Positions 28,946 to 36,754 are shown, numbered from the stretch's first letter. The stretch is DNA of 64,000 bases from an uncultured Bacteroidia bacterium (GCA_902762655.1 CACWOZ010000002.1:94743-158742), one strand, 5' to 3'. Numbers and translations are program-made. Notes: a model not told the origin generated them from the letters alone.

Positions 28946-31900
28946 ATGAAGAAGATTTTCATTCTGCTGTGCGCCTTGGCAGCCTTGGCAGCAGCATCCT
29001 GCACCGAAAAGGAAGACTTCGCTCCCGCAGGTGAGAAAGTTACCCGCGAATTCACTACCGTACTCACCAAGACGACTCTTCATACCGACGGAGCTACCGT
29101 TTACTGGGAAGAAGGGGATGCAATCAGCATCTTTGATGGTGTCGGCAATAATCAGTTTGATATTCAGGGATATGACAACGGCAGCCCTTCAGCTTCCGCA
29201 ACTTTCAGCGGTACTGTAGATGCTGGTGCTACTTCTTTCTATGCTGTGTATCCTTATTACGCTGGCAATAGTCTTGTAGGTTCTACCCTTACTGCTTCAG
29301 TTCCTGCCGCGCAGACTCTCAAGACAGGTAGTTTTCAGTCTGGGGCTGCTGTGGCCGTGGCTTATACCACTGGCAATTCTCTTGCATTCCATCAGGCTAC
29401 GGCTATCCTCGGTATCACCCTTGCTGACTACATGGACAATGTGGAGAGCATCGAGTTCAAAGGAAACAAGGACGAAGTTGTCGCCGGCAATGTCGATGTA
29501 ACATTGAATTCTTCAGGTGACATCACTTCCGTATCTCCTTCCGGAACCGACAAGACGGTTACCCTTTCCGGTACATTTACTGCTGGTGAGACTTACTACC
29601 TTTCGTTCATTCCCCAGACCTTTAGTGACGGCTTGACAGTGACTGTTACTTACGGGGGCGGTCAGACAGCGGTCGCTACCAGCAATAAGAGCCTTGCTAC
29701 CGAGCCCGGAATGAGCTATCCTATCGCAGACTTCAGCAGGGTAGAACTGCCTGTTGTCTTGTTTGACAAAAAGAATTTCAACTACGATGAGGGAACGCCT
29801 CAGACGCTTCCTGCAACCTGCAAGAATGTTACATCACTCGTTATTGACGATATTCCTGACGGCTGGACAGTTGTTTGGAATTCGGATCATTTTGATGTAA
29901 CTCCTCCAACTCTGGCAGAGATTCAGGCTACTCCGCAGACAGTAGCACCTGCGGGTGTGGTAAAAGTCACCATTAGCAACGCCAAGTACAGTGGTAAGCT
30001 GGAAATCCCCGTGAGGTTGTATGGTATCAACAGTGTGGAAGAGTTTAATGCTTTCCGCACTGCTTATGGCCCCCTTAATGATGGCATTGGTATATTTGCC
30101 GAAGGGACCTCAGGTGCTGCCCGCAAGGCTGCCGCTTTGGATTACTTTGTCGATGACGAAATCACTTTCAATACCGACATCGCTCCTGCCTCGGTTACTA
30201 ATTATTATTTCCACAACATTGAGCATAACATCAATGGTAATAACAGGACTCTGACGATTACTGTTTCAGGCAGTGCCTGGCCTATAGGTTTCTGCCAGCA
30301 AACTTACGGAAACCCTGTTGTTCACGATTTGAATCTTGCTGGTACTATTACATGGACACACGATAATGGTAGTTATTCTAGCGGAAATGCTTTAGCGGGA
30401 GGTTTCGCTGCTCAAGTTGCAGGCGGAACCCTCACTTTTACGAATGTGAACAGTTCGGTTAATATTACCTGGACTTCTTCAACAGAGGCTACTCCTAAAT
30501 CAACAGGAAAACACGTGGTAGTTGGCGGTTTGGTTGCTTTCAGCAATGGAAAAACCATTACTTATAATGATTGCGAAGTATCTGGAATTATTTCCCAGAA
30601 CACTAGGGCTTTGGGACTCGGTGGTTTCTTAGGTTGGAGTGCGGGAGCCAATAAAGCGTATTTTAATCATTGTACTTTCAGCGGTAATCTTATTAATACA
30701 GTTACAAGTGCAGATAAGTCCGCATATACTGATAATACTAATCTTGATATGATTGGTGGCTTCGTAGGAGCAAGTGATGGGAATGCTTCTGCTTTGATAC
30801 AGGTAAAAGGTAGCACTATGTCAGGCAAAATTACCATTGCCGATGGCGCGAGGATGCTTGGCGGTTTTGTCGGAAAGGCATCATGCCCTGTAGTAATTGG
30901 TGATGATGATTTAGGGAATCATAGTTCATTTGCCGGTAAGATTGACTATACCGATAACGTTGGTGTCGTGTCTTCGCCTGCATATGGGTATGTCGGAGGT
31001 TTCATTGGCAACAAGACTGCTAATACCACTTCCATCACCAATTCTGTAAGCACTGCTGAAAGCGAAGTCAAAATCTCTGGTGGCGCCCCCTGTGTCGGAG
31101 GTTTTATAGGTAAGAATGATGCTGCTTTTACTAACTTTAGTGGCAATACGTTTGGAGGAGTAGTTACTTATGCTTCTACTGGAGCCGTAGTTTCGAACAC
31201 AATTGAGAGAGTCGGTGGATTTGTTGGTCATATGGGAGGAGGTGGCTCCACTTTCTCATCTTGTCATTCAAACGGCACTGTTACGATTACCAAAGGCGCT
31301 ATTAGCGTCGGTGGTTTCTGTGGAGTAGATGCTGCAAATGATACGTTCAGTTCTTGCGATTTTGGAGGCATGCTTGATTTTACCACTTATACAACACTTC
31401 CTTCAGATAGCGATAAGGCTAACAGGTGTGGCCGTATCGGAGGTTTTGTAGGTGAAATACAGACTAATACCGTAACATTTGACAATTGTAATGTCACGAC
31501 AGATGGAAAGGTGATCAGCAAGAAAGATGTTTCCAATAGCGGAGGTTTCCTTGGAAACGGTGGTGGAACTAACTCTGGTAATACGGCCAGAGGTACTGCT
31601 AATTTCTCCAATTGTAACTTCCACGGAACCATGTCCCATGATTGGGAGGATGCGGCATCCGGTGTCGGAGCACATCGTATGGGTGGCTTTGTCGGTGATG
31701 CTTCGAGAGTCGTTTCGCTTTCATCCTGTAGTAATGATGGATCTATAGTCCTTCACGACAGAGGTAAAGGGTGGACTGCTCTTGGCGGAATCCTTGGTCG
31801 GACGACAAATGCCGCATCTGGTCATACCATGAGTTTTACTTTAACAAGTTGCTCTTTCAGTGGCACAATGATGGTTTATGCGCCTACTGCTGCTAGAGCG

Positions 31901-32062
31901 ACTTCACTTTCGAATACAACGAACATATTCGGTACACTAATCGGAGCAAATGCTGCTACAACTGCAGGTGTTTTGACGATTGATGGTGCAAACTATACCT
32001 CAGGTAAAGGTGTCAATCATAACTATGGCACTACAAGTGTCACCTTTGCCGTCGAACCGTAA
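28946..32062 (+). CDS. Fimbrillin-family lipoprotein with RLYGIN module and long Gly/Ser-rich beta-helix region
   Basis: Lipobox AASC; TKTTLHTDGATVYWEEGDAISIFD; RLYGINS at 30014; many GGF(V/I/L)G repeats. Confidence 0.72.
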   Translation: MKKIFILLCALAALAAASCTEKEDFAPAGEKVTREFTTVLTKTTLHTDGATVYWEEGDAISIFDGVGNNQFDIQGYDNGSPSASATFSGTVDAGATSFYAVYPYYAGNSLVGSTLTASVPAAQTLKTGSFQSGAAVAVAYTTGNSLAFHQATAILGITLADYMDNVESIEFKGNKDEVVAGNVDVTLNSSGDITSVSPSGTDKTVTLSGTFTAGETYYLSFIPQTFSDGLTVTVTYGGGQTAVATSNKSLATEPGMSYPIADFSRVELPVVLFDKKNFNYDEGTPQTLPATCKNVTSLVIDDIPDGWTVVWNSDHFDVTPPTLAEIQATPQTVAPAGVVKVTISNAKYSGKLEIPVRLYGINSVEEFNAFRTAYGPLNDGIGIFAEGTSGAARKAAALDYFVDDEITFNTDIAPASVTNYYFHNIEHNINGNNRTLTITVSGSAWPIGFCQQTYGNPVVHDLNLAGTITWTHDNGSYSSGNALAGGFAAQVAGGTLTFTNVNSSVNITWTSSTEATPKSTGKHVVVGGLVAFSNGKTITYNDCEVSGIISQNTRALGLGGFLGWSAGANKAYFNHCTFSGNLINTVTSADKSAYTDNTNLDMIGGFVGASDGNASALIQVKGSTMSGKITIADGARMLGGFVGKASCPVVIGDDDLGNHSSFAGKIDYTDNVGVVSSPAYGYVGGFIGNKTANTTSITNSVSTAESEVKISGGAPCVGGFIGKNDAAFTNFSGNTFGGVVTYASTGAVVSNTIERVGGFVGHMGGGGSTFSSCHSNGTVTITKGAISVGGFCGVDAANDTFSSCDFGGMLDFTTYTTLPSDSDKANRCGRIGGFVGEIQTNTVTFDNCNVTTDGKVISKKDVSNSGGFLGNGGGTNSGNTARGTANFSNCNFHGTMSHDWEDAASGVGAHRMGGFVGDASRVVSLSSCSNDGSIVLHDRGKGWTALGGILGRTTNAASGHTMSFTLTSCSFSGTMMVYAPTAARATSLSNTTNIFGTLIGANAATTAGVLTIDGANYTSGKGVNHNYGTTSVTFAVEP

Positions 32063-32085
32063 CGTCAAAGTGCAAGTCTTTTTTC

Positions 32086-32118
32086 AGCAGTGCGGCCCTC
32101 GGGCCGCACTGCTTTTTT
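32086..32118 (+). terminator. Rho-independent terminator closing the second SusCD operon
   Basis: Perfect 13-bp inverted repeat agcagtgcggccc / gggccgcactgct followed by a T run. Confidence 0.88.
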
Positions 32119-32139
32119 ATTCTTTCCTCTCATCACCCC

Positions 32140-32772
32140 ATCCACAAAACCCGCCTTTCCCGTGTCTGCCCGGCCAATCTCCGCCTTCCATCCACCGAAC
32201 CGGCCCTTCCCGTGTCTGCTCGCTGAAATCCCGCCTTCCAGCTACCAAATATGCCCTACCCTTGTCTGCGCGGCGCATTTGAGAACGGTCTCCTTTTACC
32301 TGCTGGACCTTTCCCGGTCAAATGCCATTCCACCACTTTCTATTGCCCATTCCCCGGTCAAGGTCCTCCCCTCAAAATCAGACCTTTCCCATAGCTGTTG
32401 GTCCTTCCCGTGTCTGGCTGCCAGTTTTACGCCTTCCATCCACCAAACCGCCTCTTCCTGTGTTTGTCTGCCAGTTCTCCGCCCTCCCGGCACCGAACCA
32501 TCCATCCCTGTGTCTGCCCAACGCACCATTGATTATCAGCGACTTGCGCAAACTCGTCTGGTACATTCGCACCAGACGAGTTTGCGCAAATGCTTGATCC
32601 TCAATGCACCTCCTGATCAATCCCGCCCCCACTGTCCGGAATGACGAGTTCGTAAATATTCTCTCCCTTCGCAGCCACCAATCAGCCGCTCTCCGTGTCT
32701 GCCACGCCCTAAATCCCACTGCAGACACCGAACCGCCTCTTCCCGTGTCTTCCTGGCGAAATCCCCGGCCAA
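32140..32772. repeat. Degenerate 50-bp repeat array (about 8 copies in three runs; a ninth at 33584)
   Basis: Core cccgtgtctg or a variant starts at 32159, 32209, 32259, 32407, 32457, 32507, 32692, 32742, an exact 50-bp period within each run; consensus about atccaccRaaccgccYttcccgtgtctgc...aatcYccgccttcc. Confidence 0.85.
32544..32589. repeat. Perfect 19-bp inverted repeat with 8-nt spacer
   Basis: ttgcgcaaactcgtctggt (32544-32562) and accagacgagtttgcgcaa (32571-32589). Confidence 0.9.
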
Positions 32773-32776
32773 CCCT

Positions 32777-32873
32777 TCACTTTTTTTAAGTTTCCGTATA
32801 CGCAAACTTAAATAATCGTACTTTATGGCATGTTTGCGGGGGTAAATTTACGTTTGCTTTGCATATTATTGCA
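32777..32873 (+). repeat. 97-bp promoter-bearing block, copy 1 (upstream of ORF6N)
   Basis: 90 of 97 positions match 33638-33734 by hand alignment; contains a 28-bp palindrome (32785-32812) and -7 TACGTTTG (32849-32856). Confidence 0.88.
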
Positions 32874-32955
32874 TCCATAAACGCATATCCGCCGCTTCGC
32901 AGTGATTCATAGTACGGAAAAAATGGTGAAACGAAGGATTCAAATAAACTGTGTT

Positions 32956-33540
32956 ATGGAAAATAAGTTGATCCTTGTTCAAAACCTCATCTACGAGATT
33001 CGGGGTAGGAAAGTAATGCTGGACTCAGATTTGGCGAAGTTGTATCGAATAGAGACAAAAGCGCTAAAGCAAGCTGTCCGTAGAAATCTTGAAAGATTTC
33101 CGGATGATTTTATGTTCGAACTCACCTTAGAGGAGCATAAGGCATTGATAATCAATATGAGGTCACAATTTGTGACCACAAGTAACAACCCGAACACCCA
33201 TACAAGATATGCTCCTTTTGCTTTTACAGAACAGGGGGTCGCAATGCTTTCTTCGGTTCTGAAGAGTGATATTGCAATTCAAGTCAACATTGCCATTATG
33301 CGTGCATTCGTGCAAGTACGTGAACACTTGCTGACAACGACTTCTTTATCTGCTGAACTAAAAGAACTCCGAGCCAAAGTGGACTTGATCCAATGCCAGC
33401 AAGAGGAGGACCTTGGCGCACTCAATGACTTATCTGAGGAAGTCCGCAAAGATATAGACAATCTATATGTTGCAATCGGACAGTTGGCCGCCCGCCTCGA
33501 AGAAAAAAAGAACGAGCCACGGAAACGCATTGGCTATTGA
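32956..33540 (+). CDS. ORF6N domain DNA-binding protein (phage antirepressor-like)
   Basis: IYEIRGRKVMLDSDLAKLY, ETKALKQAVRRNLERFPDDFMFELT, PFAFTEQGVAMLSSVL, C-terminal RKRIGY; start moved to the ATG at 32956. Confidence 0.92.
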   Translation: MENKLILVQNLIYEIRGRKVMLDSDLAKLYRIETKALKQAVRRNLERFPDDFMFELTLEEHKALIINMRSQFVTTSNNPNTHTRYAPFAFTEQGVAMLSSVLKSDIAIQVNIAIMRAFVQVREHLLTTTSLSAELKELRAKVDLIQCQQEEDLGALNDLSEEVRKDIDNLYVAIGQLAARLEEKKNEPRKRIGY

Positions 33541-33637
33541 TTATGCGCTCAGAGGTAAATTGTGATAATGCCCCCATATCCCCATCCACCAAACCTACCC
33601 TTCCCGTGTCTGCGCAGCGAAATCTACGGTCAGCCTG

Positions 33638-33734
33638 TCACTTTTTTAAAGTTTCCGTATACGCAAACTTAAAAAATCGTACTTTATGGCATGTTTCCGT
33701 AGGTAAATATATGTTTGCTTTGCATATTATTGCA
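33638..33734 (+). repeat. 97-bp promoter-bearing block, copy 2 (upstream of rpn), preceded by one 50-bp repeat at 33584
   Basis: See copy 1; -7 element here is TATGTTTG at 33710-33717. Confidence 0.88.
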
Positions 33735-33754
33735 GTTCCAAATATTTATGACTT

Positions 33755-34598
33755 ATGGAACAGATTTTAAAGCACAGCAAGTACATCGATCCGATGATCG
33801 ACGTTGCATTCAAGCAAATCTTCGGCAAGGAGAAGAACAAGCGCCTCATCAAAGAACTTCTGGAGAATGTTTTCCATCAGGACATCACTGAACTTGAGTT
33901 CGTGAATGTTGAGCATCCCGGAGAATCCAAGGATGACCGCAAGGCGGTTTTCGACCTGCAGTGCAACTCCAGACGGAAACTGGGACTACGATTTCAAACC
34001 CGTATTCTTTCTCGGAATACTGAATTACAAACTTGCAGAACCATCCAAAGATAACGAGGAATATCTCCACAGTTACTCTATCCGCAATGACAAGGATGGG
34101 GCGCAATTGACAGACAGTCTGCAATTCGTTTTCCTGGAACTGGCCCGGTTCAACAAGCGGCTGAAGGATTGCAACAACTTTATAGACAAGTTCTTGTATT
34201 ATTTCAAGAATCTTCCTACTTTTGTTGTGAAACCAGATACGCAGCAGGATAGTTATTTCGAGGAACTGCTTGCTGCCGCAGAATACAGTAATATGACAAA
34301 AGCAGAACGGGAAGCCTACAACAGGCGTTTGAAAATACAACGCGACAACTACGCGGCGGATGAGTTCGCTCGCAAAAAAGCTTTAAAGGAAATCGCCGAA
34401 GGGCGTGAAAAAGGCTTGGCGGAGGGCCTTGCTAAAGGCATGGAACAAGGCATGGAACAGGGCATAGAACAAGGCATGGCGCTAGGCCGATCAGAGGCAA
34501 ATCGGGATAATGCGCGTAAAATGCTTTTGGAAGGCATTCCGACTGAAGTTATCGGGCGGGTGACAGGCCTGTCGGCAGAAGAAATAGACAGTCTGTAA
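33755..34598 (+). pseudogene. Rpn / PD-(D/E)XK nuclease family 2 gene, frameshifted and internally deleted
   Basis: N-part YIDPMIDVAFKQIFG...AVFDLQC (33755 frame) shifts near 33965 into TPDGNWDYDFKPVFFLGIL...FVFLEL...EQG repeats (33906 frame). The usual IVEMQ...RxLYY segment is absent. Confidence 0.85.
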
Positions 34599-34605
34599 TG
34601 AATTT

Positions 34606-34635
34606 AGGGGTGCGGCTTTTGCTGCACCTCTTTTT
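34606..34635 (+). terminator. Rho-independent terminator after the rpn remnant
   Basis: 11-bp stem aggggtgcggc / gctgcacctct (two GU pairs), tttt loop, T run. Confidence 0.7.
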
Positions 34636-34661
34636 CACTTGCGAAAGCGGAACAAAATTCT

Positions 34662-34687
34662 TAAATTTGAAAGTATTTATACTTTCA
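34662..34687 (+). promoter_or_regulatory. Promoter (-7 TAAATTTG) overlapped by perfect palindrome TGAAAGTAT-TT-ATACTTTCA
   Basis: 9-bp arms at 34668-34676 and 34679-34687, 3 nt before the GH3 ATG. Confidence 0.6.
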
Positions 34688-34690
34688 TTT

Positions 34691-36754
34691 ATGAAACGAT
34701 TCTCTACATTGTTCCTGGCCGTTGCCGCCCTGATGCTTCCGGTAAGTGCAATCGCCACCCAGATTACGCAGAAAGACAAGGACCGCGCCGCGAAACTCGT
34801 GTCGCAGATGACCCTGGACGAAAAAATCGGTCTGATTTCGGGAAAAACGGACGGCTTCCATACCTTTGCGGTTCCCCGTCTCGGAATTCCGTCAGTTCAG
34901 ATGGCGGACGGCCCTCAGGGGGTGCGCAACGTCGGCGGCAAGAATGTACAGAGCACCTTCTACCCTTGCGGAATCTCCGCCGCGGCAAGTTGGAACCGTG
35001 ATGCGGTCCGTGAAATGGGAGCAGGCATAGGTTGTGCTGCCAGGGCACACGGTGTGCAGATTATGCTAGGTCCAGGCGTGAATATCTATCGTTCAGCCCT
35101 TTGTGGACGCAATTTCGAGTATTACGGCGAAGACCCTTATCTCGCCTCGGAAACCGCCCTCAATTACATCGAAGGTATGCAGGAGCAGGGGGTGATGGCC
35201 ACCATAAAACATTTCGCGCTCAATCAGCAGGAGTATGACCGCCACGGCGTTAGTTCCAATGCGGATGAACGTACGATGAACGAAATATACTTTACCACTT
35301 TCCGCAAAGCCGTCGAGAGGGGGAATGTCGGTGCCGTGATGACCAGCTACAACCCGGTGAACGGAGTCCATGCAGCCGAGAATGACTGGCTTATAAACGA
35401 CAACCTCCGTGCCTGGGGTTTCGAGGGCATCGTGATGAGCGACTGGGTTTCAAATTACGACCCGATCAATTTCGCCACTGTGGGCGTGGATCTTGAGATG
35501 CCACGGGCCTATGTGGCAAAGGAAGAGATGCTTAAGTCGTTGATTGCCAATGGGGTAGTGCGTGAAGCGGATCTCGATGCCAAGTGCATCCATATTCTTC
35601 AGACTCTCTCCGCATTCGGTTTCCTGGACGGAAATCTCAACGCCGATCCTTCTGCTGAAGACAAGGCTCTGTCGCAGAAACGCGCGTACGAAATCGCACT
35701 CGAAGGACCGGTGCTTCTCAAGAATGAAGACGGAATACTTCCGCTCAAACCCGGAAGGAAGAATATCCTTGCGCTTATCGGCCCCAATGCCAATGAAATA
35801 GTTTGCGGAGGCGGCTCCGGCTGGGTTAACCCGGAAGACGGCAAAGGTGTTACCCTTTATGAAGGGCTGCGTTCACTGGGAAAGAACTGGAATGTAGTGT
35901 TGCTGGGAACCCCGGACCCCGAAATCCTTAAGAAAGCCTCCGCTGTCGTGGTTTCGGTAGGATTCAACCGCGATACCGAAAAGGAAGGTGCAGACCGCCG
36001 CTACGGCTTTAGGCACAGCTATCAGAACGAACTCATCAAAACCGTGGCTTCCTACAACAAGAACGTGGTAGTAGTCGCCAATTCCGGTGGTGAATTCGAC
36101 ATCGCTCCATGGGCTGATGATGTAAAGGCTATAATTCTTGACTGGTATCCGGGACAGGAAGGCGGAAATGCCATTGCGGCTATTCTCAGTGGAAAAGCTT
36201 CTCCTTCAGGCAGGTTACCATTCACTTTCTGGGGATCACTTGACAAGAACCCGGCCCAGAAGTGGTATGCGGCTATGCCTCTCCATCCGAATGCCGACCG
36301 CGACCGTTATCCAATAGCCGAATATGGCGAAGGTGTATTTCTCGGATATCGCGGAGTGGAACGTTTCAACGTCAGCCCTCTTTATGCCTTCGGTTATGGC
36401 CTGACTTACACCACTTTCGATTATTCCGACATCCAGGCCGTGCCTGCCGGTGACGGATACGATATCACATTCATAGTCACCAATACCGGCAAGGCGGATG
36501 CCAAGGAGGTCGCCCAGGTTTATGTGGCGCCGGAGAATCCTTCCATAATACGTCCGGCAAAAGAACTGAAGGGATACGACAAGAAGCTGATAGCGAAGGG
36601 TGCGGCGGCTGAGTATACTGTTCATCTTGGCCCCGATGCTTTCAGTTACTACGATGTGGACAGTCATTCCTGGAAGGTTGACAGAGGTGAATACAGAATA
36701 CTCGTCGGCGCTTCGGCCGATGACATACGTCTCGAAGTTAAAGTAAAAATATGA
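34691..36754 (+). CDS. GH3 beta-glucosidase-like glycosidase with fibronectin III C-terminus
   Basis: ADGPQGVR, GRNFEYYGEDP, IKHFALN, IVMSDW (nucleophile), YGEGVFLGYR, FGYGLTYTTF; start set at MKRFSTLF. Confidence 0.95.
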   Translation: MKRFSTLFLAVAALMLPVSAIATQITQKDKDRAAKLVSQMTLDEKIGLISGKTDGFHTFAVPRLGIPSVQMADGPQGVRNVGGKNVQSTFYPCGISAAASWNRDAVREMGAGIGCAARAHGVQIMLGPGVNIYRSALCGRNFEYYGEDPYLASETALNYIEGMQEQGVMATIKHFALNQQEYDRHGVSSNADERTMNEIYFTTFRKAVERGNVGAVMTSYNPVNGVHAAENDWLINDNLRAWGFEGIVMSDWVSNYDPINFATVGVDLEMPRAYVAKEEMLKSLIANGVVREADLDAKCIHILQTLSAFGFLDGNLNADPSAEDKALSQKRAYEIALEGPVLLKNEDGILPLKPGRKNILALIGPNANEIVCGGGSGWVNPEDGKGVTLYEGLRSLGKNWNVVLLGTPDPEILKKASAVVVSVGFNRDTEKEGADRRYGFRHSYQNELIKTVASYNKNVVVVANSGGEFDIAPWADDVKAIILDWYPGQEGGNAIAAILSGKASPSGRLPFTFWGSLDKNPAQKWYAAMPLHPNADRDRYPIAEYGEGVFLGYRGVERFNVSPLYAFGYGLTYTTFDYSDIQAVPAGDGYDITFIVTNTGKADAKEVAQVYVAPENPSIIRPAKELKGYDKKLIAKGAAAEYTVHLGPDAFSYYDVDSHSWKVDRGEYRILVGASADDIRLEVKVKI

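What the first reader, a model, noticed from the sequence alone, without database searches (positions are those of the whole stretch)
32723..34635. Cassette-like architecture: each accessory gene is preceded by [50-bp repeat][28-bp palindrome][promoter]
Seen: a 97-bp block (90/97 identical) precedes both ORF6N and rpn. It holds TTTAAGTTTCC-GTATAC-GCAAACTTAAA (32785-32812; one-base variant at 33646-33673), which can be read as 11-6-11, and a -7 element conserved at TA and TTTG while the nn position varies. Terminators at 32086 and 34606 bracket the unit. Established: Xer/dif-type sites have 11-6-11 geometry and flank mobile pdif modules in Acinetobacter; these arms do not match the E. coli dif consensus. 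Inference: a site-specific cassette-stacking system supplying its own promoter, or a shared operator for a stress regulon (ORF6N is a candidate binder).
Basis: partly seen in the sequence, partly recalled or inferred. Interest (0 to 1): 0.68.

Follow-up and report, generated by a model that had tools for sequence, protein, structure and literature searches.

The report
Shared promoter block on two defence genes
Two neighbouring anti-phage-type genes (an ORF6N gene and a broken rpn nuclease gene) in an uncultured rumen Bacteroidales bacterium each carry a copy of the same ~95-bp promoter-plus-palindrome block behind a 50-bp minisatellite, a lineage-specific regulatory and recombination module rather than a Xer/dif or integron cassette system.

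Summary
A 148-153-nt direct repeat (127/148 identical; core 90/97) precedes both genes. It consists of one 50-bp unit, a truncated unit, and a ~95-bp block holding a T-run, a 28-nt palindrome and a Bacteroidetes -7 box.

Comparison with about 40 related loci shows:
- The block is the native upstream region of one rpn lineage, found at six or more unrelated chromosomal sites.
- One ORF6N lineage (PADLOC PDC-S05, at least 80% identical) carries the same block, fused at exactly ...ATTATTGCA|, and always lies within 3 kb of an rpn gene or remnant.
- ORF6N-free alleles with a single block exist at two or three loci, once within one species (97.5% identical flanks).
- Block copies within a genome share derived variants, indicating gene conversion.
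- The 50-bp array changes by whole units.
- A MntA/HepT pair elsewhere sits in the array between 41-bp direct repeats.

The Xer/dif reading fails. The palindrome centre varies in length, homology extends on both sides, both sites have the same orientation, and no recombinase was found.

Best reading: a shared promoter-operator for two defence genes, whose direct repeats allow gain and loss of the ORF6N module by homologous recombination. Operator function and recombination mechanism are inferred. The window's rpn is a pseudogene.

The parts
32086..32113 (+). Intrinsic-terminator-like hairpin plus T-run ending the upstream Mfa-like surface-protein gene (28946-32062); left border of the islet
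   Evidence: the same hairpin precedes the array in L084, L086, L117
32138..32767 (+). Degenerate minisatellite. Seven units of period 50 (32138, 32188, 32238, 32436, 32487, 32671, 32722). Unit = ~32-nt conserved part CCATCCACCRAACCGSCYCTTCCCGTGTCTGC plus ~18 nt more variable. Some units carry GCAGACAC-N16-GTGTCTGC.
   Evidence: Unit number differs between strains and species (3-8). One contig differs from L084 by exactly +50 bp.
32270..32417 (+). Non-unit segment inside the array (two CCTTTCCCGGTCAA-like motifs). Conserved in L084, L090 and L117; in L117 a second copy lies between ORF6N and the rpn block.
32520..32612 (+). Very stable 93-nt hairpin (36-nt arms at 32527-32562 / 32571-32606) inside the array. 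Each arm holds an AGTTTGCGCAAACT-like compact palindrome.
   Evidence: I1.: -46.3 kcal/mol, z = -9.3. Two compensatory pair changes against L085. Partial copy in L087. Copies in other rumen contigs.
32721..32776 (+). Last full unit plus truncated unit (...CCCTTCAC) directly abutting block copy 1; left part of the direct repeat
   Evidence: 39/56 identical to 33582-33637
32777..32873 (+). Block copy 1: T-run, palindrome 32785-32812, AATCGTACTTTATGG, variable GCGGGGGTA, -7 box TACGTTTG 32849-32856, invariant CTTTGCATATTATTGCA. Ends sharply at 32873.
32874..32958 (+). ORF6N-specific leader (begins TCCATAAACGC...), conserved with L001, L091, L117
32959..33540 (+). ORF6N gene (193 aa): N-terminal ORF6N domain plus a ~80-residue C-terminal helix. 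Matches PADLOC PDC-S05. The central ~300 nt are hypervariable between otherwise near-identical alleles.
   Evidence: metatranscriptome contigs over 32933-33446
33541..33581 (+). ORF6N 3' tail (TTATGCGCTCAGAGGTAAATTGTGATAATGCCCCCATATCC), conserved with L001/L091/L117 up to the next unit
33582..33637 (+). One 50-bp unit plus truncated unit (...CCTGTCAC) before block copy 2
33638..33734 (+). Block copy 2: palindrome 33646-33673, variant CCGTAGGTA, -7 box TATGTTTG 33710-33717. Ends at 33734.
33735..34598 (+). rpn leader (GTTCCAAAT...ATGGAAC) and rpn pseudogene (ATG 33755). A 104-bp deletion after 33972 removes the PD-(D/E)XK core and shifts the frame. The C-terminal frame 33906-34598 keeps the Rpn C-terminal HTH and the 12-bp (4-aa GMEQ/GIEQ) repeats at 34435-34479.
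34606..34631 (+). Terminator-like hairpin after rpn; right border of the islet, followed by the GH3 gene (ATG 34691)

Best explanation
The region is a two-gene phage-defence islet wedged between a surface-protein gene and a GH3 gene of a polysaccharide-utilisation locus. It holds an ORF6N gene of the PDC-S05 candidate-defence type and an Rpn toxin-antitoxin nuclease gene, the latter inactivated in this window.

Each gene is its own transcription unit behind a copy of one ~95-bp promoter-operator block. The block contains:
- a T-run;
- a 27/28-bp palindrome made of two inverted half-sites TTTA(A/T)GTTTSC that resemble the -7 box itself;
- a conserved AATCGTACTTTATGG stretch;
- the Bacteroidetes -7 box TAYGTTTG;
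- the next ~17 nt.

The block is the native upstream region of this rpn lineage and travels with rpn. One ORF6N lineage has the same block fused at exactly the same point (...ATTATTGCA|) and sits just upstream of rpn. Both genes should therefore respond to the same RNA polymerase/regulator input. The palindrome most likely acts as the operator of a dimeric DNA-binding protein. Candidates are the HTH-like C-terminal domain of Rpn/RpnS, as in autoregulated toxin-antitoxin promoters, or the ORF6N protein.

Block plus preceding 50-bp unit form 148-153-bp direct repeats. These are homogenised by gene conversion. Across them the ORF6N module is lost by deletion, or gained by Campbell-type integration of a circle carrying one repeat, through general homologous recombination. 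The 50-bp array is a minisatellite that grows and shrinks by whole units and offers further homology for such exchanges.

Shown: the anatomy, its conservation, the multiple contexts, the ORF6N-free alleles, the concerted evolution, the unit-number variation, and the family assignments.
Inferred: promoter activity, operator function and the identity of the binder, and the recombination mechanism.
For: - Repeat anatomy.
- The block precedes rpn at six or more unrelated sites: Mfa-like/GH3 (L084-86, L090), HepT (L087), NAGLU remnant (L089), tRNA (L107), ECF sigma (L119), Metallophos (L126)..
- The block precedes ORF6N at three sites (window/L117; L001/L091; L109-114 after rpsU), always with the junction after ATTATTGCA..
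- A more diverged version of the upstream region is again shared between an rpn (L106) and an ORF6N (L108/L125)..
- All ORF6N genes at least 80% identical lie within 3 kb of an rpn gene or remnant. None of 80 more distant ORF6N loci does, and none of those has the block..
- ORF6N-free alleles have a single block with the left flank of copy 1 and the right flank of copy 2. L084 vs L117 are 97.5% identical in their flanks..
- Within-genome copies share derived variants: L094 a/b AAACGTA; L100 a/b; L117 a/b 27-nt palindromes..
- Palindrome arms are conserved while the centre varies. The hairpin is weak as a single strand at -7.1 kcal/mol, favouring a double-stranded DNA binding site.
- The arm TTTAAGTTTGC matches the -7 region TTTACGTTTGC at 10/11 positions, and TAAGTTTG is found on the minus strand of both palindromes.
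- The -7 consensus TAnnTTTG is from PMC7366714.
- The ORF6N coding sequence is covered by metatranscriptome contigs.
- ORF6N = PADLOC PDC-S05 at E=9.5e-55. A PDC-S05 representative protects E. coli from T7/T5/T4.
- rpn = TIGR01784/PDDEXK_2 + HTH_Rpn_C, with strain-variable 4-aa repeats as described for RpnS. RpnS is reported as HTH-like (PMC10400941).
- A MntA/HepT pair sits in the array between 41-bp direct repeats.
- One contig shows a +50-bp unit gain.
Against: - No transcription start site or binding data. The only RNA evidence is low-depth contigs over the ORF6N coding sequence.
- A canonical -33 TTTG at the usual distance is not evident: the TTTG at 32833-32836 lies only 12 nt upstream of the -7 box.
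- The sharp common end of the block in front of at least three different leaders is not what homologous recombination alone produces. Some illegitimate or site-specific joining created those fusions at least once.
- Too few informative differences to map crossover points (and its inspection).
- Rumen metagenomes hold the palindrome alone inside a longer hairpin, and the block in front of at least one unidentified gene. The element may therefore have a life of its own.
- The function of the 50-bp array remains unexplained.
Confidence: 0.55

Rival explanations
1. Site-specific cassette system. The palindrome is the core site of a tyrosine recombinase (Xer-like or unknown). [palindrome-promoter-gene] units excise as circles (861 bp here) and stack by site-specific recombination.
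For: The window copies have 11-6-11 geometry. ORF6N is present or absent between otherwise collinear alleles, and the single-block allele has exactly the flanks a site-specific deletion would leave. The left edge of the homologous unit coincides with the T-run/palindrome in four different left contexts. The palindrome also occurs on its own elsewhere.
Against: The centre is 6 nt in some copies and 5 nt (or 13-1-13) in orthologous copies, and differs in sequence. Homology between the two copies extends 56 nt left and 61 nt right of the site. Both sites have the same orientation, unlike pdif modules. By my recollection of the E. coli dif sequence only 7/28 positions match. No recombinase gene is in the window or in about 40 related loci. 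Shared derived variants outside the palindrome point to gene conversion. No circle junction was seen, but only contigs were available.
Confidence: 0.1
2. Neutral history only. A tandem duplication of the rpn upstream region, as in the rpn arrays made by direct duplication, was followed by replacement of one gene by ORF6N. The repeats and the array have no function beyond being a promoter copy and junk satellite.
For: rpn arrays are reported to arise by tandem direct duplication (PMC10400941). The duplication includes non-promoter array sequence: one unit in the window, about 300 nt in L117. The array is highly variable.
Against: The same block-ORF6N fusion occurs at three unrelated chromosomal sites. 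A second, diverged version of the upstream region is again shared by an rpn and an ORF6N. The block is about 90% conserved, with an invariant 25-nt stretch and conserved palindrome arms, across species whose flanking genes are about 88% identical and whose array is far more diverged. That indicates selection on the block.
Confidence: 0.2
3. The block is the outward-reading end of a small non-autonomous mobile element (a MITE-like promoter carrier) that inserts upstream of genes and activates them, as IS-borne promoters do in Bacteroides.
For: The right end is sharp and identical (...ATTATTGCA|) in front of at least three different leaders, and there is an unidentified fourth context in metagenomes. 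The block core is about 10-fold over-represented relative to its flanks in run X10. The left end begins at the T-run/palindrome in several contexts.
Against: For rpn the conservation continues across the supposed end into the leader in all copies, down to 64% protein identity (GCATATTATTGCWGTTCCAAA). For rpn it is therefore simply the gene's own 5' region. There are no terminal inverted repeats, no target-site duplications and no conserved right end after rpn. No copies were found in the other 63 kb of the window or in 80 other Bacteroidota ORF6N loci.
Confidence: 0.1
4. The array and hairpin encode a non-coding RNA, for example transcribed leftward from the -7-like box on the minus strand of the palindrome, and the repeats are RNA modules.
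For: TAAGTTTG on the minus strand of both palindromes points into the array. The 93-nt hairpin is extremely stable, with compensatory changes.
Against: No Rfam match. No metatranscriptome contig over the array. The unit hairpin is not conserved: most units read CCATCCAC instead of GCAGACAC. Several rpn and ORF6N copies have no array at all.
Confidence: 0.04

Closest known systems
Rpn (RpnL/RpnS) toxin-antitoxin phage-defence genes (Zhong et al. 2023, PMC10400941)
   Same: PD-(D/E)XK N-terminal domain plus C-terminal HTH-like domain. Hypervariable 4-aa repeats whose number differs between strains (GMEQ x2-4, GIEK x2-5). Single-gene units gained and lost without inverted repeats or target duplications..
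   Different: The paper reports variable ends and no defined flanking elements. Here one Bacteroidales lineage has a sharply defined, conserved 95-bp upstream block with a palindrome, often a 50-bp minisatellite, and a partner ORF6N gene using the same block. The window copy is a pseudogene.
PADLOC candidate defence system PDC-S05 (ORF6N/RhuM-type single-gene system)
   Same: Full-length HMM match at E=9.5e-55. PDC-S05 is abundant in rumen MAGs. One representative is protective in E. coli.
   Different: The tested representative carries a RhuM domain and comes from another lineage. No regulatory block or linkage to rpn has been described. Activity of this gene is untested.
pdif modules / Xer-dif site-specific recombination (Acinetobacter plasmids)
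   Same: 28-bp 11-6-11 imperfect palindromes flanking a small accessory-gene module, with present and absent alleles.
   Different: Centre length is not fixed (5 or 6). Sites are in direct rather than inverted orientation. Homology extends well beyond the site on both sides. Arms are unlike dif. Each module brings a promoter.
Integron gene cassettes (attC / attI / IntI)
   Same: Small single-gene modules with an imperfect palindrome at each boundary, stacked head to tail.
   Different: No intI, attI or Pc. The palindrome lies 5' of each gene together with its own promoter. Only two gene families are involved.
Autoregulated type II toxin-antitoxin promoters and defence-island regulators that bind palindromic operators (e.g. 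BrxR/CapW-type; my own knowledge)
   Same: A palindromic site next to or overlapping the promoter of a toxic defence gene. HTH-like antitoxin domain available. A half-site-like sequence overlaps the -7 box.
   Different: Binding is not shown. The same operator-promoter is duplicated onto a second, unrelated defence gene. The palindrome centre lies about 65 nt upstream of the presumed start, more typical of an activator or upstream site than of a simple repressor.
Repeat-flanked exchangeable islets moved by homologous recombination (e.g. Neisseria minimal mobile elements; tandem-duplication rpn arrays; my own knowledge)
   Same: Accessory genes between conserved sequences, alternative occupants at one site, no dedicated recombinase.
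   Different: Here the homology is supplied by short local repeats (41-150 bp: block, units) rather than by flanking core genes.

Membership tests
Xer/dif-type site (pdif module) | Two 11-bp arms separated by a central region of fixed length (6-8 bp) | tested here: not met
   Window copies are 11-6-11. Orthologous or paralogous copies are 27 nt (GC-TGC, GCAG-C, CTAT-C centres) in L084, L087, L089, L090 and L117 a/b.
Xer/dif-type site (pdif module) | Arms resemble XerC/XerD binding consensus | tested here: not met
   By inspection against the E. coli dif 28-mer recalled from memory, 7/28 positions agree, which is chance level. A Bacteroidales dif consensus was not available to test.
Xer/dif-type site (pdif module) | Module bounded by sites in opposite orientation, with homology confined to the sites | tested here: not met
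   Both copies have the CC arm on the left and the GC arm on the right. Identity extends 56 nt left (39/56) and 61 nt right (55/61) of the palindrome.
Integron | intI integrase, attI and a common promoter Pc next to promoterless cassettes ending in attC | tested here: not met
   No integrase domain in 34 window ORFs or in the gene tables of related loci. Each gene has its own -7 box.
Rpn toxin-antitoxin (RpnL/RpnS) | N-terminal PD-(D/E)XK nuclease domain (PF12784 / TIGR01784) | tested here: met
   The intact allele L094 scores 100.2 bits against TIGR01784 (cut-off 52.1). The window copy matches profile positions 1-66 and 104-224 in two frames and lacks 104 bp including IVEVQVK. It is a member by descent but inactivated.
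Rpn toxin-antitoxin (RpnL/RpnS) | C-terminal HTH-like domain with strain-variable four-amino-acid repeats | tested here: met
   PF27070 HTH_Rpn_C hits. GMEQ/GIEQ x2-4 and GIEK x2-5 between strains. Criterion taken from PMC10400941.
Rpn toxin-antitoxin (RpnL/RpnS) | Separate translation of RpnS from an internal start; toxicity and phage protection | not testable with these tools
   Needs ribosome profiling or expression assays.
PADLOC PDC-S05 candidate defence gene | Match to the PDC-S05 profile HMMs | tested here: met
   PDLC04856 E=9.5e-55, residues 6-192 on profile 11-174/177.
PADLOC PDC-S05 candidate defence gene | Protection against phage | not testable with these tools
   Only a distant representative has been tested, in a preprint.
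Bacteroidetes sigma-ABfr promoter | -7 element TAnnTTTG | tested here: met
   TACGTTTG at 32849-32856 and TATGTTTG at 33710-33717. Invariant TA..TTTG in 18 copies. Consensus from PMC7366714.
Bacteroidetes sigma-ABfr promoter | -33 TTTG at the usual distance, and a mapped transcription start | tested here: inconclusive
   The TTTG at 32833-32836 is only 12 nt upstream of the -7 box. RNA contigs cover only the ORF6N coding sequence, so there is no 5' end.
Autoregulated TA-type operator | Palindrome bound by the antitoxin/regulator, with repression of the promoter | not testable with these tools
   Support is indirect only: conserved arms with a variable centre, a third half-site-like copy over the -7 box, and an HTH-like RpnS. 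The AlphaFold2 model of ORF6N gave no significant PDB match.
IS / MITE-type mobile element | Terminal inverted repeats, target-site duplication, conserved both ends | tested here: not met
   No conserved sequence after the rpn stop across six contexts. Left flanks differ without duplications.
CRISPR-like array | Identical repeats separated by unique spacers of about 30 nt | tested here: not met
   Units are 60-80% alike. The 18-nt 'spacers' resemble each other. The period is 50.

The most novel reading that the evidence does not exclude
The 50-bp array plus the palindrome-promoter block is a dedicated, recombinase-free landing pad for small defence modules in rumen Bacteroidales. Modules such as ORF6N, MntA/HepT and rpn would be bracketed by array- or block-derived direct repeats, pop out as circles carrying one repeat, and re-enter any other array or block. 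Exchange might be stimulated by breaks made by the resident recombination-promoting Rpn nuclease. Each module would arrive with, or acquire, the same regulated promoter.
Probability: 0.12. Interest if true: 0.7.

Novelty: new variant of a known kind. Interest (0 to 1): 0.4.

Why it matters
Rpn genes are described as moving without defined ends or known regulation, and PDC-S05/ORF6N genes are only candidate defence genes. This locus gives three things:

1. A sharply defined, conserved cis-element (palindrome plus -7 box) that can be tested directly as the control region of an Rpn toxin-antitoxin gene in Bacteroidales.
2. A physical and regulatory link between two unrelated defence gene families.
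3. Natural alleles with and without the ORF6N module, including a pair from one species. These make the mechanism of small defence-gene gain and loss testable.

If the repeats prove to be exchange substrates, that would help explain how single-gene defence systems turn over inside otherwise stable loci such as PULs. If not, the finding is still a useful annotation. Two of its parts also correct existing calls: the rpn gene is a pseudogene, and the ORF called through the array is spurious.

Tried and rejected
- Rfam scan of 31500-35200 at E<=1: only two sub-threshold chance hits at the terminator.
- Exact-pattern scans of GTDB genomes. The palindrome 22-mer gave one true locus and the promoter 22-mer gave three. 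The Rpn-protein scan reached only four loci.
- The single metagenome scan gave five true copies and three chance hits in coding DNA.
- Viral contigs: no array and no block in three scans.
- PLSDB plasmids and INPHARED phages: only the ORF6N coding part has distant matches. The P. distasonis ORF6N triplet has no block.
- Circle search. Only assembled contigs were available. The one 'goes back 104' joint (X14) is simply block1-ORF6N-block2 read on a one-block reference, not a circle.
- Metatranscriptomes: contigs over the ORF6N coding sequence only, with no 5' ends.
- ORF6N structure: AlphaFold2 pLDDT 74.7. Best Foldseek PDB hits have E>=0.23 (winged-HTH regulators, Dachshund) and are not significant. 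PDB sequence searches were empty.
- IS-like reading of rpn rejected: no conserved 3' end and no inverted repeats.
- CRISPR-like reading and a coding reading of the array rejected. The period is 50, which is not a multiple of 3. The 184-aa ORF 32090-32644 has no family.
- Terminator reading of the palindrome rejected: an A/T-rich weak stem with the T-run before and the A-run after it on both strands.
- Gene-specific promoter variants (GCGGGGGTA for ORF6N, CCGTAGGTA for rpn) were considered and rejected. L086, L087 and L089 rpn copies carry the 'ORF6N' variant, and L100/L117 ORF6N copies carry the 'rpn' variant.
- Crossover mapping between L117 and L084 was uninformative because there are too few differences.


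Full report
**1. The observation**

The sequence is as described.
- The repeat finder reports a two-copy direct repeat, 32726-32873 and 33587-33734 (148 nt, 86%).
- My count gives 90/97 identical for 32777-32873, 127/148 from 32726 and 129/153 from 32721. Identity collapses outside: 4/21 to the left, 7/27 to the right.
- The 28-mer TTTAAGTTTCCGTATACGCAAACTTAAA lies at 32785-32812, with a one-base variant at 33646-33673. No shuffle gave a match.
- TACGTTTG (32849-32856) and TATGTTTG (33710-33717) fit the Bacteroidetes -7 consensus TAnnTTTG (consensus from PMC7366714).
- Terminator-like hairpins lie at 32086-32113 and 34606-34631.
- The genes are an ORF6N gene (32959-33540; Pfam ORF6N E=2.5e-33) and a PDDEXK_2/Rpn gene.

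Three corrections are needed.
- The '50-bp repeat' is a degenerate array of seven period-50 units at 32138-32767 before the first gene. A single unit (33582-33628) precedes the second gene.
- The array is interrupted by a conserved 148-nt segment (32270-32417) and by a 93-nt hairpin (32520-32612; -46.3 kcal/mol, z = -9.3).
- rpn is broken in this window. Relative to the intact allele in L094 it lacks 104 bp after 33972, which removes the PD-(D/E)XK core and shifts the frame.

**2. Where it comes from**

The window belongs to an uncultured rumen/bovine-gut Bacteroidales bacterium. The region lies inside a polysaccharide-utilisation locus with SusC/SusD pairs, an ECF sigma/anti-sigma pair, GH3, and GH78 and GH106 rhamnosidases. 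None of the 34 larger ORFs scanned has an integrase domain.

**3. Related loci**

DNA-pattern scans, protein-guided scans and exact-protein look-ups gave about 40 informative loci. The main results follow.

(a) The ~95-bp block runs from the T-run to ...ATTATTGCA. It precedes rpn at six or more unrelated chromosomal positions:
- the Mfa-like/GH3 locus (L084, L085, L086, L090);
- after a MntA/HepT pair (L087);
- next to a NAGLU remnant (L089);
- after a tRNA and its terminator (L107);
- next to a divergent ECF sigma gene (L119);
- next to a Metallophos gene (L126).
In rpn copies the conservation continues across the end of the block into the leader (GCATATTATTGCWGTTCCAAA), even at 64-71% protein identity. 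The block is therefore the native 5' region of this rpn lineage. Nothing is conserved after the rpn stop codon, and there are no inverted ends. This agrees with the published view that rpn genes are not conventional transposons.

(b) The same block precedes ORF6N genes at three positions: the window/L094-L103/L117 locus, the NAGLU locus (L001, L091), and after rpsU (L109-L114). The junction is always after ATTATTGCA. Two different ORF6N leaders follow it.

(c) A second, much more diverged version of the upstream region has repeated TTACGTTT/TTTAAGTTT half-sites and an ACCATAAGA...TCTTATGGT hairpin. It is again shared between an rpn (L106) and an ORF6N (L108, L125).

(d) Every ORF6N gene at least 80% identical to the window's lies within 3 kb of an rpn gene or remnant. 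None of the 80 more distant ORF6N loci has an rpn relative or the block.

(e) Neither the block nor the array occurs in viral contigs, PLSDB plasmids or INPHARED phages.

**4. Present and absent alleles**

- At the Mfa-like/GH3 locus, all ten places holding the identical ORF6N protein keep the 861-bp block-to-block spacing.
- L084, L085, L086 and L090 have array-block-rpn with no ORF6N. Their GH3 is about 88% identical to the window's.
- L117 has ORF6N with 1061-bp spacing. Its flanks are 97.4-97.5% identical to those of the ORF6N-free L084. This is a within-species polymorphism.
- The single block of the ORF6N-free alleles has the left flank of copy 1 and is followed by the rpn leader of copy 2.
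- At the NAGLU locus, L001/L091 have block-ORF6N-unit-rpn remnant, while L089 has block-rpn.
- At the rpsU/Metallophos locus, L109 has block-ORF6N followed by a GIY-YIG gene fused to an Rpn C-terminus. L126 has block-intact rpn of the same type.

**5. How the copies evolve**

In the alignment of 18 copies (A1):
- The palindrome arms, AATCGTACTTTATGG and a 25-nt stretch TTTAYGTTTRCTTTGCATATTATTG are invariant or nearly so.
- The palindrome centre varies in sequence and length: GTATAC, GC-TGC, GCAG-C, CTAT-C.
- A 9-nt patch between the palindrome and the -7 box exists in two forms, GCGGGGGTA and CCGTAGGTA.
- These two forms are not gene-specific.
- The two copies within one genome share derived variants. 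L094 a/b both have AAACGTA, L100 a/b share CCGTAGGTAAATTTATG, and L117 a/b both have 27-nt palindromes. This indicates gene conversion.

The array changes by whole units between strains. Three to eight units are seen, and one contig differs from L084 by exactly +50 bp. In L087 a MntA/HepT toxin-antitoxin pair lies inside the array between 41-bp direct repeats (38/41) of array sequence. That is the same 'insert between local direct repeats' design as ORF6N between the 148-bp repeats.

**6. What the genes are**

- ORF6N matches PADLOC PDC-S05 over its full length (E=9.5e-55) and phage anti-repressor PHROGs.
- PDC-S05 is abundant in rumen MAGs. One representative protected E. coli from T7, T5 and T4 in a preprint.
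- The intact rpn allele matches TIGR01784 above the cut-off and carries HTH_Rpn_C.
[quoted passage not shown] This is exactly the hypervariable feature described for the RpnS antitoxin, which is reported to be HTH-like.
- The AlphaFold2 model of ORF6N (pLDDT 74.7) shows a small alpha/beta N-domain and one ~80-residue helix. It has no significant PDB neighbour.

**7. Mechanism**

The best-supported reading is a shared promoter-operator.
- The palindrome is weak as a hairpin (-7.1 kcal/mol). It has the T-run before and the A-run after it on both strands, so it is not a terminator.
- Conserved arms with a free centre are the signature of a dimeric DNA-binding protein.
- The arms (TTTAAGTTTGC) are near-copies of the -7 region (TTTACGTTTGC). 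The right arm reads TAAGTTTG on the minus strand.
- The block thus holds three copies of one half-site, one of them over the -7 box. This suits a repressor that occludes the promoter, but could also mean a divergent promoter.
- Candidate binders are RpnS/Rpn (HTH-like) and ORF6N. None of this is shown.
- The only expression evidence is low-depth metatranscriptome contigs over the ORF6N coding sequence.

For gain and loss of ORF6N I favour homologous recombination between the 148-153-bp direct repeats.
- Homology extends on both sides of the palindrome.
- The copies show concerted evolution.
- No recombinase is linked.
- A second insert (MntA/HepT) is flanked by a different local repeat.

One point argues against a purely homologous history. 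The identical sharp fusion point in front of different leaders must have arisen by some non-homologous event at least once.

**8. Comparison with known systems**

- The Xer/pdif and integron readings fail defining features that could be tested: centre length, site orientation, confinement of homology to the site, and presence of intI/attI/Pc. See the membership table.
- The rpn gene is a member of the Rpn toxin-antitoxin family by domain content and repeat behaviour.
- ORF6N is a member of PDC-S05 by profile match.
- What appears undescribed is the cis-architecture. It comprises a defined, conserved palindrome-promoter block for a Bacteroidales rpn lineage, its duplication onto a linked ORF6N defence gene, and the 50-bp minisatellite with embedded modules.
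- My literature searches on ORF6N with Bacteroides, on PDC-S05, and on Rpn found nothing on such a block. The library is not exhaustive.

**9. Open points**

- Rumen metagenomes contain the block followed by at least one other sequence: GGAAAAAATACTTATGAAAAAAAAAAC....
- They also contain the palindrome alone inside a longer hairpin, CCCGTGAATTT[palindrome]AAATTCACGGG.
- The block core is about 10-fold over-represented relative to its flanks in one run.
- I could not retrieve these contigs.
- The function of the 50-bp units, if any, is unknown.

**10. Verdict**

This is a lineage-specific variant of known things, namely defence-gene regulation and repeat-mediated turnover. Interest is moderate.

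Noticed in passing
window 33755-34598 (deletion point after 33972; repeats 34435-34479): rpn is a pseudogene in this strain group. A 104-bp deletion removes the PD-(D/E)XK core and shifts the frame. Sister strains (L094, L099, L100) keep an intact 316-319-aa gene. The C-terminal frame, which includes the RpnS-like part, stays open.
   Followed up: yes
window 34435-34479; L084-L087, L090, L094, L096, L100: [quoted passage not shown] This matches the hypervariable RpnS repeat of Zhong et al. 2023.
   Followed up: yes
window ~33020-33320 (within ORF6N): The ORF6N gene is mosaic. The block, leader, first ~25 codons and last ~300 nt are 95-100% identical to L091/L001/L117. The central ~300 nt (ORF6N domain core) are only 53-68% identical. 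This looks like allelic replacement of a specificity region.
   Followed up: partly
window 32520-32612: A 93-nt hairpin with 36-nt arms (-46.3 kcal/mol, z -9.3) lies inside the array. It shows two compensatory pair changes against L085. A truncated copy is in L087, and copies occur in other rumen contigs on either strand. Each arm carries an AGTTTGCGCAAACT-like compact palindrome that resembles the block's half-sites. It may be a MITE or structured-DNA element.
   Followed up: partly
L087 (reverse strand) 150-1300: A MntA/HepT nucleotidyltransferase toxin-antitoxin pair is embedded in the array upstream of rpn. It is flanked by a 41-bp direct repeat (38/41) of array sequence.
   Followed up: partly
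L109 2390-3610 (also L110-L114): After rpsU: block, a different leader rich in GTCATTCCGAGCGAAGCGGAGGAATC repeats, a 166-aa ORF6N, then a GIY-YIG nuclease gene fused in frame to an Rpn C-terminus. A GIY-YIG element appears to have replaced most of an rpn gene; the intact form is in L126.
   Followed up: partly
window 34668-34687: Perfect 9-2-9 palindrome TGAAAGTATTTATACTTTCA, 3 nt upstream of the GH3 start codon (34691). It is conserved in L084, L085, L086 and L117. It may be an operator or translational element of the GH3 gene and is unrelated to the block palindrome.
   Followed up: no
window 32803-32810 and 33664-33671 (minus strand): The right arm of each palindrome reads TAAGTTTG on the minus strand, a match to the -7 consensus pointing leftwards. 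At L001/L091 and L119 a divergent gene lies to the left, so the block might act as a bidirectional promoter there.
   Followed up: no
window 32090-32644: A 184-aa ORF through the repeat array is called as a gene in public assemblies (L095, L097). It has no family hit and runs through 50-bp (non-triplet) repeats, so it is almost certainly spurious.
   Followed up: partly
window 33735-33763: The rpn start codon sits in a conserved inverted repeat GTTCCA-N15-TGGAAC, extended to GGTTCCA...TGGAACC in L107. The predicted stem is weak (-5.8 kcal/mol, z -0.66). Conservation of the 3' half may simply reflect the Met-Glu-Gln N-terminus.
   Followed up: partly
runs X10, X19, X31, X32, X39 (read laying on 32760-32880 and on L084:2400-3500): Metagenome contigs show the block followed by an unidentified sequence (GGAAAAAATACTTATGAAAAAAAAAAC...). 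They also show the palindrome alone inside a longer hairpin, CCCGTGAATTT...AAATTCACGGG. The contigs could not be retrieved.
   Followed up: no
L115/L116; L127 (P. distasonis plasmid NZ_OY725801.1, 59598-61331): Other Bacteroidales carry two or three ORF6N genes in tight tandem (24-nt gaps or overlapping), with no block between them. This is a different, operon-like way of multiplying this gene family.
   Followed up: partly
window 1-64000: The context is a polysaccharide-utilisation region: two SusC/SusD pairs, ECF sigma plus FecR, GH3, GH78 and GH106 rhamnosidases, and several metallo-beta-lactamase-fold proteins. The rpn and ORF6N genes of this clade are repeatedly found next to large Mfa-like/GLUG-repeat surface-protein genes (window, L001, L108, L119, L124).
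   Followed up: partly
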